IMG/VR virus record: IMGVR_UViG_3300022758_000225
Coordinates: 1-22,421 of that record
DNA length: 22,421 bases
Source of the DNA: a virus
Lineage: Duplodnaviria; Heunggongvirae; Uroviricota; Caudoviricetes
Reading direction: 5' to 3' (one strand)
The notes beneath the pieces are model-generated. The model was given only the letters and a program-made list of their open reading frames with translations, was not told where the DNA came from and did no database searches. The translations under genes and the position numbers were made by a program. Below are positions 11,985 to 15,000 of the stretch, one piece after another (within the stretch, counting starts at the first letter, position 1; each line of letters opens with the position of its first letter).

Positions 11985-12020
11985 TTTTCCCGGGTGCAGC
12001 CGGTTTTGATGGAGAAAATT

Positions 12021-12302
12021 ATGAACACCTTGTTTTTACTGATGGCTGAATTCAATACCCCTAACATTGAACTCTCAGCAGTTAGCCAAAAGTACTTTGG
12101 CATGAGTCCAGCCACGGCAGAAGCAAAAGCAAACGCTTGTAAGTTGCCCGTTCCAACATATCGCATCGGCACATCACAAAAAGCAAAACGTTGCATCAAT
12201 ATTCAGGATCTTGCGGAATACATAGACAAAAGACGAGAAGAAGGACGTATCGAGTGGGAACAGGTCAGAACAGGCAAACAGAAGGGCAAAGAACATCACT
12301 AA
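12021..12302 (+). CDS. PrtN-family DNA-binding protein (pyocin-activator / excisionase-like)
   Basis: MNTLFLLMAEFN...IQDLAEYIDKRR closely resembles the N-terminus of P. aeruginosa PrtN. ATG at 12021 preceded by GGAG. Confidence 0.6.
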   Translation: MNTLFLLMAEFNTPNIELSAVSQKYFGMSPATAEAKANACKLPVPTYRIGTSQKAKRCINIQDLAEYIDKRREEGRIEWEQVRTGKQKGKEHH

Positions 12303-12304
12303 AG

Positions 12305-12331
12305 AAAAAACCCGCCTAAAGGCGGGTTTTC
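12305..12331. terminator. bidirectional intrinsic terminator
   Basis: aaaaaaCCCGCCtaaaGGCGGGtttt: GC-rich stem flanked by an A-run and a T-run, between convergent genes ending at 12302 and 12350. Confidence 0.6.
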
Positions 12332-12349: not shown

Positions 12350-12523
12350 TCATGCTGCTTTGCGACGACGAAGCTTACCCTGCTGCTCTTTACCAGAGAC
12401 AGTAGCGTGAGTGAACGCATTAGGAGCAGCCTTCATCAGAACTTCAACAGCAGCACCCATACCTGCGAATGCTTTCATTGTGTCGAACTTAACCTGTGGC
12501 TTGGTTGCTTTTTGATCTTTCAT
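12350..12523 (-). CDS. small lysine-rich hypothetical protein (57 aa; not in the supplied ORF track)
   Basis: Hand translation of the minus strand gives MKDQKATKPQVKFDTMKAFAGMGAAVEVLMKAAPNAFTHATVSGKEQQGKLRRRKAA. ATG at 12523 preceded by GGGAG at a 7-nt spacing. Confidence 0.4.
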   Translation of the reverse strand: MKDQKATKPQVKFDTMKAFAGMGAAVEVLMKAAPNAFTHATVSGKEQQGKLRRRKAA

Positions 12524-12719
12524 AGAAAACTCCCGAGACAGTAAAGGCGTCTCTAACCCTCTCTTTAAAGCTAGCTTGTTTAGCTAACTTATGCCAATCG
12601 ATCATGTCGATTGGTGACATCGTTTCTTAGTAGTTTAAGCACAAAACGACTGCCATAGATGTACCTTTAAGGTAATCTGGACGGGTATCCTACAATTTGT
12701 AGACCCTTCTCGTCTATAC

Positions 12720-13256
12720 CTACTGAGCAAATTTAAGAAAGATATCCTGCAGCTCATCAATGACTGCAGACATCACATAACCGCACTGTTCCATGCGGAA
12801 ACCAAAAGACTCGTAATACTGCACCAGTTCTGGTACTGGCTCTACAATGTGGACAACTTTACATTCAACAGCTTTACAAAATATAAAAGCACTCATAAGA
12901 GTGAGTAAAACCATGCGCCCTTTCAATGGGTGAGATTCATCTTCTCTAGAAAACCTTTCGATCATATGGATACGAAAGATGTTTTCTTCAACCCCATAAA
13001 CACAAATTGCTGCTCCTGATGGTATTCCCTGAACCCGACCTTGCTGAACAAGTTTTATGCAGAACTCATACTTTTCTCTGGAGTTGCCATAGGTGCTTAA
13101 CGCATAGTCCCATTCAAGCTCACCATAGCCACCACACAGAATCTTGTAATCATCATCACTGAGCGGACCAACAGCAAGAGGTAAGCCGACATGATCAATA
13201 ATCAACTGGATATTGTTACGTACAGATTGACCTATCTCGTCTAGGGTAAGCATCAT
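12720..13256 (-). CDS. GNAT-like acetyltransferase-fold protein (moron candidate)
   Basis: 178 aa. KGRMVLLTLMS and ELVQYYESFGF resemble GNAT motifs A and B. Opposite strand to its neighbours and visibly AT-rich. Fold call is tentative. Confidence 0.45.
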   Translation of the reverse strand: MMLTLDEIGQSVRNNIQLIIDHVGLPLAVGPLSDDDYKILCGGYGELEWDYALSTYGNSREKYEFCIKLVQQGRVQGIPSGAAICVYGVEENIFRIHMIERFSREDESHPLKGRMVLLTLMSAFIFCKAVECKVVHIVEPVPELVQYYESFGFRMEQCGYVMSAVIDELQDIFLKFAQ

Positions 13257-13536
13257 AGACTCTCAAGCGGAACACTAAAAATCTCATTATATCTCATTCT
13301 GATGCCCCGCATGGATTACACCTTGAAATGAAAACACCGGGTTCCCAATAGGCTCCCACAAAGTGTATAACTACTTGTTTTTCAAAAACGGTACATCCTA
13401 TCGAGCATAGGAGCAATGCTAAACCGAGAACTCCAGTAAGCGCCAGTTTTTTCAGGCATCACGCTGGTTTGATTAGTTTTCTGTATTTCAGGATTATCGT
13501 GCATTTTTGAACATTTCAGGCTATTTTTCTCGCGTT

Positions 13537-13572
13537 AGGTTCCCGCACAGGTTCCCACGTTTTATGGGAACC
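13537..13572. promoter_or_regulatory. repeated GGTTCCC motifs upstream of the integrase gene (candidate arm-type or regulator binding sites)
   Basis: AGGTTCCC at 13537-13544 and 13549-13556; inverted copy GGGAACC at 13566-13572, forming TTCCCA-N7-TGGGAA. Related GGTTCCCA and GGCTCCCA copies at 13340-13347 and 13351-13358. Confidence 0.35.
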
Positions 13573-13592: not shown

Positions 13593-14690
13593 ATGGCGTA
13601 CTATAACATAGAGAAACGACTAAAATCCGATGGCACACCACGCTATCGCTGTAATGTGATTATCAAAGAAAAAGGTGTTATCACTTACAGGGAAAGCAAA
13701 ACATTCCCTAAACATGCTCATGCCAAAACATGGGGCGCACAGAAAGTGATGGAATTAGATCTATATGGCATTCCATCATCAAATGCTGTTGATGGACTTA
13801 CAGTCCGTGACTTACTACACAAATATTTAAATGACCCAAATGCCGGAGGTAAAGCAGGCCGTACTAAAAGATATGTGCTGGAACTGCTTATGGATAGTGA
13901 CATATCCGCGATCAAACTATCTGAACTGACAGAAAATGACGTAATTGAACATTGCAGGCTAAGAAACAACGCTGGTGCAGGCCCAGCAACAGTCAGCCAC
14001 GATGTTAGTTATCTTGGCAGTGTTCTGGATGCGGCAAAACCTGTATACGGAATCAATTACACATCAAACCCGGCGAAAAGCGCTCGTCCATATCTACTTA
14101 AACTCGGTTTGATTGGTAAATCAAACCGTCGTAATCGTAGACCAGCATCTGATGAACTGGACATGCTCATTGAAGGCCTTCAACAACGATCTACTCATAA
14201 ATGCTCAAAAATTCCGTTCGTTGATATCCTCAAATTTTCTGTGTGGTCCTGTATGCGAATCGGAGAAGTATGCCGGTTACGATGGGAAGATCTCGACCAA
14301 GAACAAAAATCTATACTAGTAAGAGATAGGAAAGATCCACGTAAAAAGGAAGGTAACCATATGAAAGTTGCCTTGCTTGGGGAAGCCTGGGATATCGTCC
14401 AGCGCCAACCCAAAAAATCAGAATTCATTTTTCCATATAACAGCACTTCTGTTACCGCAGGATTTCAGAGGGTAAGAAGCAAATTAGGTATTAAAGATCT
14501 GCGATACCATGATTTGCGTAGAGAAGGGGCAAGTCGCTTATTTGAGGCTGGTTTTAGTATTGAGGAAGTCGCTCAAGTTACAGGGCATCGTTCATTAAAC
14601 GTGCTATGGCAGGTATATACCGAACTGTATCCGAAATCTTTACATAATCGTTTTGAAGAACTCCAAAAGAGCAGAAACAAGACCTCTTGA
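13593..14690 (+). CDS. int: tyrosine site-specific integrase
   Basis: 365 aa with C-terminal catalytic signature YHDLRREGASRLFEAGFSIEEVAQVTGHRSLNVLWQVYTEL (HxxR and Tyr nucleophile). RBS GAGG. Confidence 0.9.
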   Translation: MAYYNIEKRLKSDGTPRYRCNVIIKEKGVITYRESKTFPKHAHAKTWGAQKVMELDLYGIPSSNAVDGLTVRDLLHKYLNDPNAGGKAGRTKRYVLELLMDSDISAIKLSELTENDVIEHCRLRNNAGAGPATVSHDVSYLGSVLDAAKPVYGINYTSNPAKSARPYLLKLGLIGKSNRRNRRPASDELDMLIEGLQQRSTHKCSKIPFVDILKFSVWSCMRIGEVCRLRWEDLDQEQKSILVRDRKDPRKKEGNHMKVALLGEAWDIVQRQPKKSEFIFPYNSTSVTAGFQRVRSKLGIKDLRYHDLRREGASRLFEAGFSIEEVAQVTGHRSLNVLWQVYTELYPKSLHNRFEELQKSRNKTS

Positions 14691-14751: not shown

Positions 14752-15000
14752 ATGCGTATTGAAATCTGCATAGCCAAAGAGAAAATGACTAAAATGCCAA
14801 ACGGTGCTGTGGATGCGTTAAAGGAAGAATTAACTCGGCGCATCAGTAAGCGTTATGACGATGTAGAAGTGATCGTAAAAGCCACCAGCAATGATGGGCT
14901 TTCTGTTACACGCACAGCAGATAAGGATTCTGCAAAAACATTTGTTCAGGAGACTCTGAAAGATACCTGGGAGTCTGCTGACGAGTGGTTTGTTCACTAA
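14752..15000 (+). CDS. DinI-like DNA-damage-inducible protein
   Basis: 82 aa; [11 protein letters not shown]...[16 protein letters not shown] matches the E. coli DinI family along its length. RBS GAGGGA. Confidence 0.85.

What the first reader, a model, noticed from the sequence alone, without database searches (positions are those of the whole stretch)
12350..13256. AT-rich inserted module: GNAT-like gene plus a 57-aa gene flanked by palindromes
Two minus-strand genes sit between the early operon and int, in the opposite orientation and with visibly lower GC than their neighbours. The 57-aa gene has a good RBS but is below the ORF-track threshold. The intergenic region holds a 21-bp perfect palindrome CCAATCGAtcatgTCGATTGG (12594-12614), an AGCTAGCT palindrome (12569-12576) and CTACAAtTTGTAG (12690-12702). 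A GNAT-fold enzyme with a small partner and operator-like palindromes could be an acetyltransferase toxin-antitoxin pair, a lysogenic-conversion gene or an anti-defence gene.
Basis: partly seen in the sequence, partly recalled or inferred. Interest (0 to 1): 0.6.

Follow-up and report, generated by a model that had tools for sequence, protein, structure and literature searches.

The report
Mobile prophage GNAT enzyme–mini-protein cassette
Between the excisionase and the attachment site of an mEp460-like E. coli phage sits a self-contained, horizontally mobile two-gene cassette, a very divergent acetyltransferase-fold enzyme plus a 57-residue basic partner protein that depends on it, which looks like an uncharacterised toxin–antidote or phage-defence module, though its function has not been tested.

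Summary
Two minus-strand genes (178/177 aa and 57 aa) lie between a PrtN-type xis and the dusA-type attP/int of an mEp460-like phage, and all three palindromes are at the stated coordinates.

The larger protein matches no Pfam, NCBIfam or PADLOC model. Its AlphaFold2 model is confident (pLDDT 93.6), and every top structural match is a GNAT acyltransferase.

The 57-aa ORF is a real gene (dN/dS 0.05–0.2). A recognisable copy follows the GNAT-like gene in 105 of 105 related loci.

The pair moves as a unit with its own −10 element and terminator. It occupies classic moron or defence slots: xis–attP, Q–holin, tail modules, the P2 tin/old slot, and a site beside cas3.

In 205 E. coli genomes a Panacea toxin–antitoxin pair has replaced the GNAT gene, and the leftover small gene drifts there (9 nonsynonymous versus 2 synonymous variants). 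So the small protein depends on the enzyme.

The 8-bp-arm dyad is sequence-conserved in seven lineages and overlaps a candidate internal promoter.

My best reading (confidence about 0.45) is a toxin–antitoxin-like or defence cassette, with the GNAT as effector and the labile mini-protein as antidote. It is not a canonical GNAT/DUF1778 system. Toxicity, substrate and acyl-CoA use are untested.

The parts
12306..12331 (-). Intrinsic terminator (11-bp stem followed by a T-run) that ends the cassette. It is bidirectional and also follows xis on the + strand.
   Evidence: Found by the terminator scan. The same TAGCTGGTGCTTTTTGAAAACCCGCC...GGCGGGTTTTTT element follows the small gene in the Q-holin, tail-module, colicin-island and Xenorhabdus contexts, so it belongs to the cassette.
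12350..12523 (-). Gene for the 57-aa basic (pI 10.5), mostly disordered partner protein (phrog_2741). Its invariant features are the N-terminal MK, G23, L29, A32, P34, E46, G49 and a C-terminal Ala-Ala.
   Evidence: dN/dS is 0.05-0.2. AlphaFold2 gives pLDDT 60 with helices at 15-19 and 22-32 only. pI is.
12530..12553 (-). Shine-Dalgarno sequence GGGAG (12530-12534) preceded by a GAGAC...GTCTC hairpin (12535-12553) in the leader of the small gene.
   Evidence: Read from the sequence. The GAGAC/GTCTC stem next to the Shine-Dalgarno sequence is conserved in 7 enterobacterial lineages. Analogous hairpins occur in the Edwardsiella and Xenorhabdus spacers.
12568..12597 (-). Candidate internal sigma-70 promoter for the small gene: -35 TTGGCA (12592-12597), an 18-nt spacer, and -10 TAGCTT (12568-12573). 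This is inferred, not shown.
   Evidence: My reading. The arrangement TTGG(C/T)A, 17-18 nt, TA-n-C-n-T recurs in all 7 aligned lineages. The strict consensus scan did not report it.
12594..12614 (.). Inverted repeat CCAATCGA-N5-TCGATTGG. It is operator-like, and its right arm overlaps the candidate -35.
   Evidence: P=0.027. The arms are sequence-conserved with a variable spacer in 7 lineages, and one symmetric A:T to G:C change preserves the dyad. It extends to 10-14-bp arms in relatives.
12662..12674 (.). Second dyad, TACCTTaAAGGTA. It carries the TTACC/GGTAA half-site that is iterated 5-6 times in the spacers of relatives.
12690..12702 (.). Inverted repeat CTACAAtTTGTAG just after the GNAT stop codon. 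It forms a weak hairpin with no T-run.
   Evidence: The TGTAGGAT block is conserved.
12720..13256 (-). Gene for the 178-aa (177 aa from the second ATG) acidic GNAT-fold protein (phrog_4350). Conserved residues include W49, H97, E100, H109-P110-L111-x-G113, E139, Y148 and G152-F153.
13286..13291 (-). Perfect -10 hexamer TATAAT about 30 nt upstream of the GNAT start codon. It is the candidate promoter of the cassette, and the -35 is poor.
   Evidence: Sequence. A TAnAAT element at the same distance from the start codon is present in every genomic context, including the most divergent loci.
13382..13504 (-). Context: the phage-borne 5' fragment of dusA, marking the attP region. In lysogens the native dusA promoter and this stub sit directly upstream of the cassette in the same orientation.
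   Evidence: RefSeq annotates a partial DusA here. Lysogen junctions are seen in L008 and L111. Integration into dusA follows PMC4482086.

Best explanation
Shown:
- The region is an autonomous, horizontally mobile two-gene moron.
- It consists of a -10 promoter element, a very divergent acidic GNAT-fold acyltransferase gene, a structured spacer, a gene for a 57-aa basic and largely disordered protein, and an intrinsic terminator.
- The two genes are an obligate pair, and the small gene loses selective constraint when the enzyme gene is replaced.

Inferred mechanism:
- The cassette works like a toxin-antitoxin or abortive-infection module expressed from the prophage.
- The GNAT enzyme is the effector. 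It probably acylates an amino group on a basic protein or a polycation, rather than on tRNA.
- The mini-protein is its cognate antidote or regulator. It binds the acidic enzyme directly, possibly as a pseudo-substrate.
- The mini-protein is made in excess from an internal promoter whose -35 overlaps the conserved dyad.
- It is kept short-lived by its conserved C-terminal Ala-Ala, which resembles an ssrA/ClpX tag. That resemblance rests on my own knowledge and was not tested.
- Loss or titration of the mini-protein, for example during infection by another phage or after loss of the element, would free the enzyme.
For: Fold:
- The AlphaFold2 model has pLDDT 93.6 and pTM 0.90.
- The alpha-4 motif YYESFGF aligns with the catalytic-Tyr motif of solved GNATs.

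Obligate pairing:
- All 105 loci with a GNAT-like gene at 42-100% identity have the recognisable small gene downstream.
- Remoter relatives (L105-L109, L121) also have a small downstream ORF, which is basic in three of the four kinds seen (pI 9.0-12.0; the L109 one is 6.8).

Mobility as a unit through moron and defence slots:
- The pair is found in the xis-attP slot (window), the Q-holin slot (L092, L019), between tail tube and tape measure (L103), in a Photorhabdus baseplate module (L011), in the P2-like gpA-portal slot (L013), beside cas3 (L024) and beside a colicin (L016).
- The -10 element and the terminator travel with it.

Dependence and asymmetry:
- 562 E. coli genomes have the small gene but only 358 have the GNAT gene.
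- The other 205 carry Panacea plus a 128/139-aa gene in place of the GNAT gene.
- In that arrangement the small gene shows 9 nonsynonymous and 2 synonymous variants, against 3 and 9 when the GNAT gene is present (Fisher p=0.012), plus indels and truncations.
- The enzyme was never seen without the partner. Orphan antidotes are tolerated, whereas orphan toxins are not.

Other support:
- Complementary charge: enzyme pI 4.3-5.4 and partner pI 9.6-10.8 in all 34 unique pairs.
- The dyad and promoter-like element in the spacer are conserved.
- The spacer folds more stably than shuffles (z=-3.4).
Against: - There are no toxicity, binding or expression data.
- Gene order (enzyme first), the 77-196-nt spacer and the lack of any RHH or DUF1778 domain differ from every characterised GNAT toxin-antitoxin system.
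- The partner is much more conserved than the enzyme, the opposite of the usual toxin-over-antitoxin pattern.
- The enzyme is acidic, unlike tRNA-binding GNAT toxins.
- GNAT motif A (Q/RxxGxG/A) is replaced by HPLxG[RK]M, so acyl-CoA binding is unproven.
- No model in PADLOC matches.
- The small protein has no predicted DNA-binding fold, so what would bind the dyad is unknown.
- The internal promoter is only a consensus-level inference, and the strict scan missed it.
- An enzyme-substrate pair would also explain the obligate pairing and the decay of the orphan small gene.
Confidence: 0.45

Rival explanations
1. Enzyme-substrate pair. The GNAT enzyme acetylates (or otherwise acylates) its own mini-protein, at the conserved Met-Lys N-terminus or at a conserved lysine. 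The modified mini-protein is then the active product, for example a superinfection-exclusion factor or a regulator that acts on a conserved host target.
For: - Many of the best structural matches are N-terminal acetyltransferases with single dedicated substrates, such as NatD, Naa20/50/60 and RimI.
- The partner's N-terminal MK and its core are invariant and more conserved than the enzyme, as expected for a molecule that must fit a conserved host target.
- Opposite charges suit an enzyme-substrate fit.
- The orphan small gene decays without the enzyme.
Against: - This reading gives no reason for a separate, dyad-controlled promoter for the substrate gene or for a degron-like C-terminus.
- It does not explain why the enzyme is never found alone while the small gene is.
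- Defence-hotspot contexts (P2 tin/old slot, beside cas3) fit a toxin-antitoxin or defence module at least as well.
Confidence: 0.2
2. Reversed toxin-antitoxin polarity. The conserved basic mini-protein is the toxin or effector, and the acidic GNAT protein is its antitoxin. The GNAT protein would neutralise it by direct binding or, in the manner of type VII systems, by acetylating it.
For: - The gene order (upstream acidic protein, downstream basic protein) and the charge polarity match the usual antitoxin-then-toxin layout.
- The small protein is the more conserved partner.
- In the alternative arrangement the small gene sits behind a Panacea antitoxin pair. All seven chromosomal loci and metagenome contigs of that arrangement whose small protein I translated carry K2E at an otherwise invariant residue, which could be an inactivating change; the two phage records (L122, L123) classify with them by the same ME start.
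Against: - The small gene persists without the GNAT gene in 205 genomes and in viable phages (Lys8385Vzw, SKA5). That is hard to reconcile with a toxin unless K2E killed it first.
- It has no transmembrane segment and no recognisable toxin fold.
- A degron-like C-terminus and a dedicated extra promoter are antitoxin traits, not toxin traits.
Confidence: 0.12
3. A host- or defence-modifying enzyme rather than a toxin. The GNAT enzyme would acetylate a host small molecule (a polyamine or antibiotic) or a defence protein (anti-defence, as AcrVA5 does). The mini-protein would be a specificity factor or regulator.
For: - SpeG spermidine acetyltransferases are prominent among the Foldseek matches, and the enzyme is acidic like SpeG.
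- Phage-borne GNATs with anti-CRISPR activity are known (PMC10799925).
- The cassette's position at the prophage end, behind the host dusA promoter, suits lysogenic conversion.
Against: - Anti-defence genes are normally early lytic genes, not terminator-bounded morons oriented against the early operon.
- The cassette also sits in non-phage chromosomal sites and beside cas3.
- Structural similarity to all GNAT subfamilies is equally remote (TM 0.5-0.6), so no substrate can be inferred.
- The strict need for the mini-protein is unexplained.
Confidence: 0.13
4. Chance neighbours. The 57-aa ORF is not a real gene, and the palindromes are noise or merely a processing signal or terminator of the GNAT gene.
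For: - Neither protein matches a curated family.
- The palindrome shows no covariation beyond one symmetric change.
Against: - The small gene has dN/dS of 0.05-0.2, is conserved down to 28% identity, and co-occurs with the GNAT gene in 105 of 105 loci across at least 7 unrelated genomic contexts.
- The dyad is conserved in sequence across lineages whose flanking genes are only 66-72% identical.
Confidence: 0.03

Closest known systems
GNAT/DUF1778 (RHH) type II toxin-antitoxin systems: TacAT, AtaRT, KacAT, ItaRT
   Same: Both are two-gene modules on mobile elements that pair a GNAT-fold enzyme of about 170-180 aa with a small, partly disordered partner. TacT3, AtaT and KacT are among the structural matches. 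Both have palindromic DNA near a promoter. The orphan-partner asymmetry is typical of toxin-antitoxin systems.
   Different: - There is no sequence homology to these toxins or to any Pfam GNAT model.
- The partner lies downstream rather than upstream, behind a 77-196-nt spacer. It has no DUF1778 or RHH domain and no predicted DNA-binding fold.
- The enzyme is acidic (pI 4.3-5.4) rather than a basic tRNA binder.
- The partner is more conserved than the enzyme.
Phage morons (autonomous promoter-gene-terminator insertions, as defined for lambdoid phages by Juhala, Hendrix and colleagues; from my own knowledge)
   Same: The cassette has its own -10 element and terminator. In this window it is oriented against the neighbouring operon. 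It appears between different backbone genes in unrelated phages, and its GC content is lower than that of the early operon.
   Different: 'Moron' describes the architecture, not the function. This one has two genes with an internal regulatory spacer.
PanA/PanT (Panacea-domain antitoxin) systems, PMC8832971 and PMC10440598
   Same: A Panacea pair occupies exactly the same slot, upstream of the same small gene, in 205 E. coli genomes. This shows that the slot is exchanged between toxin-antitoxin-type cargos, the kind of partner or cargo swapping those papers describe.
   Different: The window's cassette contains no Panacea domain. The accession numbers of these proteins are absent from the supplementary tables of both papers.
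N-terminal acetyltransferases with dedicated substrates (NatD/Naa40, RimI)
   Different: Sequence identity is 10-14%, and the hhalign probability against RimI is only 2.7%. Motif A is not canonical. No substrate is known.

Membership tests
GNAT (GCN5-related N-acetyltransferase) superfamily | Mixed alpha/beta GNAT fold | tested here: met
GNAT (GCN5-related N-acetyltransferase) superfamily | Sequence match to a curated GNAT model (Pfam Acetyltransf_1/_7/_10 and similar) | tested here: not met
   No Pfam hit at E of 1 or below for the window protein, and no GNAT model among the hits of any of its 46 relatives. No NCBIfam hit. A profile search against PDB sequences gave only sub-threshold alpha-4 matches (E 0.4-1).
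GNAT (GCN5-related N-acetyltransferase) superfamily | Motif A, Q/R-x-x-G-x-G/A, the pyrophosphate-binding loop for acyl-CoA | tested here: inconclusive
   The beta4-alpha3 loop reads H109-P110-L111-K-G113-R-M115. It is invariant among close relatives but keeps only one Gly of the motif. Model coordinates could not be inspected and no ligand could be docked.
GNAT (GCN5-related N-acetyltransferase) superfamily | Motif B / alpha-4 with the catalytic Tyr (…Y-x-x-x-G-F) | tested here: met
   Y148 and F153 are conserved in at least 90% of 47 family members. They align with the LYESLGF / FYSQFGF motifs of RimI and GNA1, but the alignment scores are weak.
GNAT/DUF1778 type II toxin-antitoxin systems (TacAT, AtaRT, KacAT) | Antitoxin with an RHH/DUF1778 domain encoded immediately upstream of the toxin (PMC9177977 abstract) | tested here: not met
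   The partner is downstream, has no Pfam hit at E of 1 or below, and AlphaFold2 shows two short helices and no beta-strand. The spacer is 196 nt.
GNAT/DUF1778 type II toxin-antitoxin systems (TacAT, AtaRT, KacAT) | Toxin homologous to tRNA-acetylating GNAT toxins, with a basic surface for aminoacyl-tRNA | tested here: not met
   No AtaT, TacT or KacT sequence was hit by the family profile at E of 10 or below. pI is 4.3-5.4 in all 34 unique pairs. The similarity is at the fold level only.
GNAT/DUF1778 type II toxin-antitoxin systems (TacAT, AtaRT, KacAT) | Toxin arrests growth and the cognate antitoxin neutralises it | not testable with these tools
   This needs expression experiments. The only indirect evidence is that the enzyme is never found without the partner, while the partner occurs without the enzyme.
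Phage moron | Own promoter and terminator, and presence or absence between otherwise collinear backbone genes in different phages | tested here: met
   The -10 element and terminator travel with the cassette into at least 7 contexts. Related dusA phages carry a different cargo in the same slot. Promoter activity itself is not shown.
Catalogued anti-phage defence systems (PADLOC-DB v2.0.0) | Match to a model of a known or candidate defence protein | tested here: not met
   No PADLOC hit for either protein at E of 1 or below.

The most novel reading that the evidence does not exclude
This is a previously undescribed class of two-component toxin-antidote or abortive-infection system. An orphan, acidic GNAT acyltransferase that does not target tRNA is held in check by a 57-residue basic, intrinsically disordered, protease-labile pseudo-substrate protein. 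The pair spreads as a promoter-to-terminator cassette through the cargo hotspots of lambdoid, P2-like and myovirus prophages, and is present in about 6.6% of complete E. coli genomes, including O157:H7.
Probability: 0.3. Interest if true: 0.7.

Novelty: new variant of a known kind. Interest (0 to 1): 0.55.

Why it matters
If the reading is right, a gene pair present in roughly one in fifteen complete E. coli genomes (358 of 5426, including O157:H7 and O111 strains), and in Salmonella, Enterobacter, Cronobacter, Photorhabdus, Edwardsiella and Shewanella prophages, is an uncatalogued toxin-antidote or defence module. Its effector is a GNAT enzyme whose chemistry and target differ from the known tRNA-acetylating toxins.

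It would add a new partner type to GNAT toxin-antitoxin biology: a tiny, non-RHH, downstream, degron-tagged protein.

It also offers a clean natural experiment. The enzyme has been replaced by a Panacea toxin-antitoxin pair, leaving the partner to decay, which shows how cargo is exchanged in the xis-attP slot of dusA-integrating phages.

Both proteins are short and the predictions are simple to test at the bench.

Tried and rejected
No complex model exists.
- The afdb50 fold library was unavailable.
- The search for related loci with alignments of distant relatives (A2, A5, A6) failed for lack of conserved stretches. Single-protein scans with P0118 and P0100 found nothing in viral contigs.
- Literature searches for the RefSeq accessions and PHROG ids returned nothing. 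Searches for GNAT defence or toxin-antitoxin systems found only the DUF1778-type systems. The accessions are absent from the supplements of the Panacea and NetFlax papers. The accessory-gene screen paper does not mention this gene.
- Rfam gave only sub-threshold hits on the terminator hairpin and nothing in the spacer.
- RNAalifold on the spacer gave a covariation term of about zero, so a conserved RNA structure is neither supported nor excluded.
- A profile search of the small protein against PDB hit only designed repeat proteins, which is spurious.
- I considered an HTH or RHH reading of the small protein and rejected it. There is no beta-strand, the 'recognition helix' AAVEVLMKAA is apolar, and there is no Pfam hit.
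- I considered the 43-aa ORF at 12489-12620 as a gene and rejected it. It is truncated to 9 codons in 5 of 7 lineages and has no Shine-Dalgarno sequence.
- One divergent small-protein cluster (P0062) comes from a fragmented metagenome contig and may be an assembly error. I did not rely on it.
Full report
**What the window is.** The region is 98.5% identical to Enterobacteria phage mEp460. There the two genes are gp23 and gp24, both annotated 'hypothetical protein'. It is also up to 99.4% identical to DNA held in many E. coli genomes. The + strand early operon ends with a 3'-5' exonuclease and a PrtN-family excisionase at 11994-12302. A tyrosine integrase follows at 13593-14690. Between them, on the minus strand, RefSeq annotates a partial DusA N-terminus at about 13382-13504. 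This is therefore a dusA-integrating phage of the kind described by Farrugia et al. (PMC4482086), seen here in its attP form.

**Checking the observation.** Both minus-strand ORFs exist at the stated coordinates.
- The 57-aa ORF has a GGGAG Shine-Dalgarno sequence 6 nt before its ATG.
The '21-bp perfect palindrome' is an 8-bp-arm inverted repeat around a 5-nt spacer, and a fourth dyad (TACCTTaAAGGTA, 12662-12674) was missed.
- Against shuffles of the 196-nt spacer, the 8-bp-arm repeat has P=0.027. The count of repeats with arms of at least 6 bp has P=0.008.
- The cassette is 42.7% GC against 48.0% for the early operon, but int is 41.9%. The compositional contrast is therefore one-sided.

**The large protein.** It has no hit in Pfam, NCBIfam or PADLOC at E of 1 or below and belongs to phrog_4350, function unknown.
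- The family is small: 54 cluster representatives among 1.84 billion proteins. None of 47 members hits a Pfam GNAT model.
- An AlphaFold2 model built on 31 homologues is confident (pLDDT 93.6, pTM 0.90).
- The conserved residues sit at canonical GNAT positions. These are beta-4 (I96-H97-x-x-E100), the beta4-alpha3 loop (H109-P110-L111-x-G113), beta-5 (E139) and alpha-4 (Y148, G152-F153). The alpha-4 motif aligns with the catalytic-Tyr motif of solved GNATs, though with weak scores.
- Motif A is not canonical, so acyl-CoA binding remains unproven.

**The small protein.** It belongs to phrog_2741 and is clearly a real gene.
- dN/dS against the window copy is 0.05-0.2 in eleven lineages.
- Homologues down to 28% identity keep the N-terminal MK, G23, L29, A32, P34, E46, G49 and the C-terminal Ala.
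- AlphaFold2 predicts only two short helices (15-19 and 22-32) at pLDDT 60. This fits a protein that folds on a partner.
- It is basic (pI 9.6-10.8) while the enzyme is acidic (pI 4.3-5.4) in all 34 unique pairs.

**The two genes form a unit.** In all 105 loci that encode a GNAT-like protein at 42-100% identity, the recognisable small gene lies downstream on the same strand. Remoter relatives also have a small downstream ORF, which is basic in three of the four kinds seen (the L109 one has pI 6.8). In L121 it is still recognisably homologous and ends in Ala-Ala. In GC-rich bacteria it overlaps the enzyme's stop codon. The pair occurs in quite different settings:
- the xis-attP slot, in the window and in Salmonella;
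- between antiterminator Q and holin (L092, L019);
- between tail tube/DUF6246 and the tape measure (L103);
- inside a Photorhabdus myovirus baseplate module (L011);
- between gpA and the portal in a P2-like Edwardsiella prophage (L013), which is the tin/old position (my own knowledge of P2);
- at a Shewanella prophage end (L010);
- beside a colicin (L016) and beside cas3 (L024).

A TAnAAT -10 element about 30-40 nt before the enzyme's start codon, and the terminator after the small gene, accompany the pair in these contexts. This is the architecture of a phage moron.

**A natural experiment.** In complete E. coli genomes the small gene occurs in 562 genomes, but the GNAT gene occurs in only 358, even with sensitive blastn.
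- The remaining 205 genomes carry, in the same dusA slot, a SocA/Panacea-domain protein and a translationally coupled 128/139-aa protein. The small gene follows after only 39 nt. Phages Lys8385Vzw and SKA5 have this version.
- The seven of these nine loci whose small protein I translated carry K2E at an otherwise invariant residue; the two phage records classify with them by the same ME start. Across the nine loci the small gene shows 9 nonsynonymous and 2 synonymous variants.
- In 78 loci that keep the GNAT gene, the figures are 3 nonsynonymous and 9 synonymous (Fisher p=0.012).
- Database clusters with the 'ME' start also show indels and truncations. One such cluster, P0059, was confirmed to lie in the Panacea context.
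- So the small gene loses constraint when the enzyme is gone, and its function depends on the enzyme. The enzyme was never seen without the small gene. That asymmetry is what is expected if the enzyme is harmful on its own and the mini-protein is its antidote. An enzyme-substrate pair would also produce it.

**The spacer.** Seven enterobacterial lineages were aligned whose flanking genes are only 66-72% identical.
- The spacer keeps discrete blocks: the dyad CCAATCG-N5-CGATTGG with a variable spacer, a TACC...GGTA dyad, GCTAsCTTTAA, and a GAGAC...GTCTC hairpin next to the Shine-Dalgarno sequence.
- One symmetric A:T to G:C change keeps the dyad. Two lineages break the stem asymmetrically, and RNAalifold finds no covariation.
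- Relatives extend the dyad to 10-14-bp arms. They carry 5-6 copies of the TTACC/GGTAA half-site where 0.4 are expected, while the window has only one exact copy.
- The right arm, TTGG(C/T)A, followed by 17-18 nt and TA-n-C-n-T, reads as a sigma-70 promoter in all seven lineages (my reading; the strict scan missed it).
- The spacer RNA also folds better than shuffles (z=-3.4).
- A protein-bound operator overlapping an internal promoter for the small gene is the most economical reading, but it is an inference. The small protein has no predicted DNA-binding fold.
- The Photorhabdus, Edwardsiella and Shewanella spacers are unrelated in sequence and lack a significant dyad.

**Mechanism.**
- Shown: the GNAT fold, the obligate pairing, mobility as a promoter-to-terminator unit, dependence of the small gene on the enzyme, complementary charge, and the conserved dyad.
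- Inferred: the enzyme is an effector that acylates an amine on a basic protein or polycation. tRNA is an unlikely target given the enzyme's acidity. The mini-protein binds and restrains it. Extra mini-protein comes from the internal promoter. The conserved C-terminal Ala-Ala makes it a ClpXP-type substrate (an ssrA-like or MuA-like tag, from my own knowledge), so that it must be resynthesised continuously.
- This is how a toxin-antitoxin or abortive-infection module works, and the cassette's homes are the slots where prophages keep such cargo. I put this at about 0.45.
- The rivals are an enzyme-substrate pair (0.20), reversed polarity with the mini-protein as toxin (0.12), a host-modifying or anti-defence enzyme (0.13), and chance neighbours (0.03).

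**Comparison with known systems.** It works like a GNAT toxin-antitoxin pair, but it is not a member of the GNAT/DUF1778 family (PMC9177977).
- It has no sequence homology to that family.
- Its partner is downstream and has no RHH domain.
- It has a long regulated spacer.
- Its enzyme is acidic.
- Its partner is more conserved than the enzyme.
- It matches nothing in PADLOC, and I found no paper describing it.

I therefore rate it a new variant of a known kind, with interest 0.55. It is widespread, cleanly delimited and easy to test, but its function is still a hypothesis.

Noticed in passing
window 13340-13572: All four copies of GGTTCCC in the 22-kb window cluster around the dusA' fragment and the int promoter region (13340, 13538 and 13550 on the + strand; 13566 on the - strand). 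They are candidate arm-type binding sites for the DusA-family integrase in attP.
   Followed up: partly
window 13257-13507; lysogen junctions L008:3954-4569 and L111:3414-4027: In lysogens the native dusA promoter and a stub of about 40 dusA codons sit directly upstream of the GNAT gene on the same strand. No terminator is predicted in between, so the cassette could be transcribed by read-through from a host housekeeping promoter.
   Followed up: partly
L110:2512-3713; also L112-L115, L117, L118, L122 (phage Lys8385Vzw) and L123 (phage SKA5): There is an alternative cargo in the same xis-attP slot in 205 E. coli genomes. It consists of a SocA/Panacea-domain protein (190 aa), a translationally coupled 128/139-aa protein of unknown family, and a drifting copy of the 57-aa gene carrying K2E. 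It is probably an uncharacterised PanA/PanT pair.
   Followed up: partly
L110:1338-2372, L117/L118:2813-3847, L006:4381-4848: Further single-gene insertions occur between the small gene's terminator and xis: a CoiA-like nuclease-domain protein (344 aa) in some E. coli, and an HTH_31 plus 2TM protein (155 aa) in one Salmonella. The slot is therefore a multi-cargo hotspot.
   Followed up: no
window 12489-12620 (minus strand); alignment A4 columns 118-147: An ATG inside an invariant GATG opens a mini-ORF across the dyad. It has 9 codons (M-x-P/L-I-x-x-x-D/N-W-stop) in 5 of 7 lineages and 43 codons in the window and Salmonella. No Shine-Dalgarno sequence is visible. It is probably non-coding, but the invariant GATG is unexplained.
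   Followed up: partly
L016, L017, L019, L023 spacers (between the GNAT stop and the small-gene start): The pentamer TTACC/GGTAA occurs 5-6 times per spacer where 0.4 are expected. L017 has a 14-bp-arm inverted repeat built from the same half-site. The E. coli and Salmonella version is degenerate, with one exact copy.
   Followed up: partly
L105-L108 (GC-rich metagenome-assembled genomes) and L109: The most distant family members are chromosomal, not obviously in phages, and basic (pI 9.2-9.8). A 61-71-aa ORF overlaps or abuts their stop codon. The charge polarity of the pair is therefore not universal across the wider family.
   Followed up: no
window 14752-15000: A DinI-like gene lies just downstream of int, as in mEp460 gp21. 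It is another small accessory gene at the prophage end.
   Followed up: no
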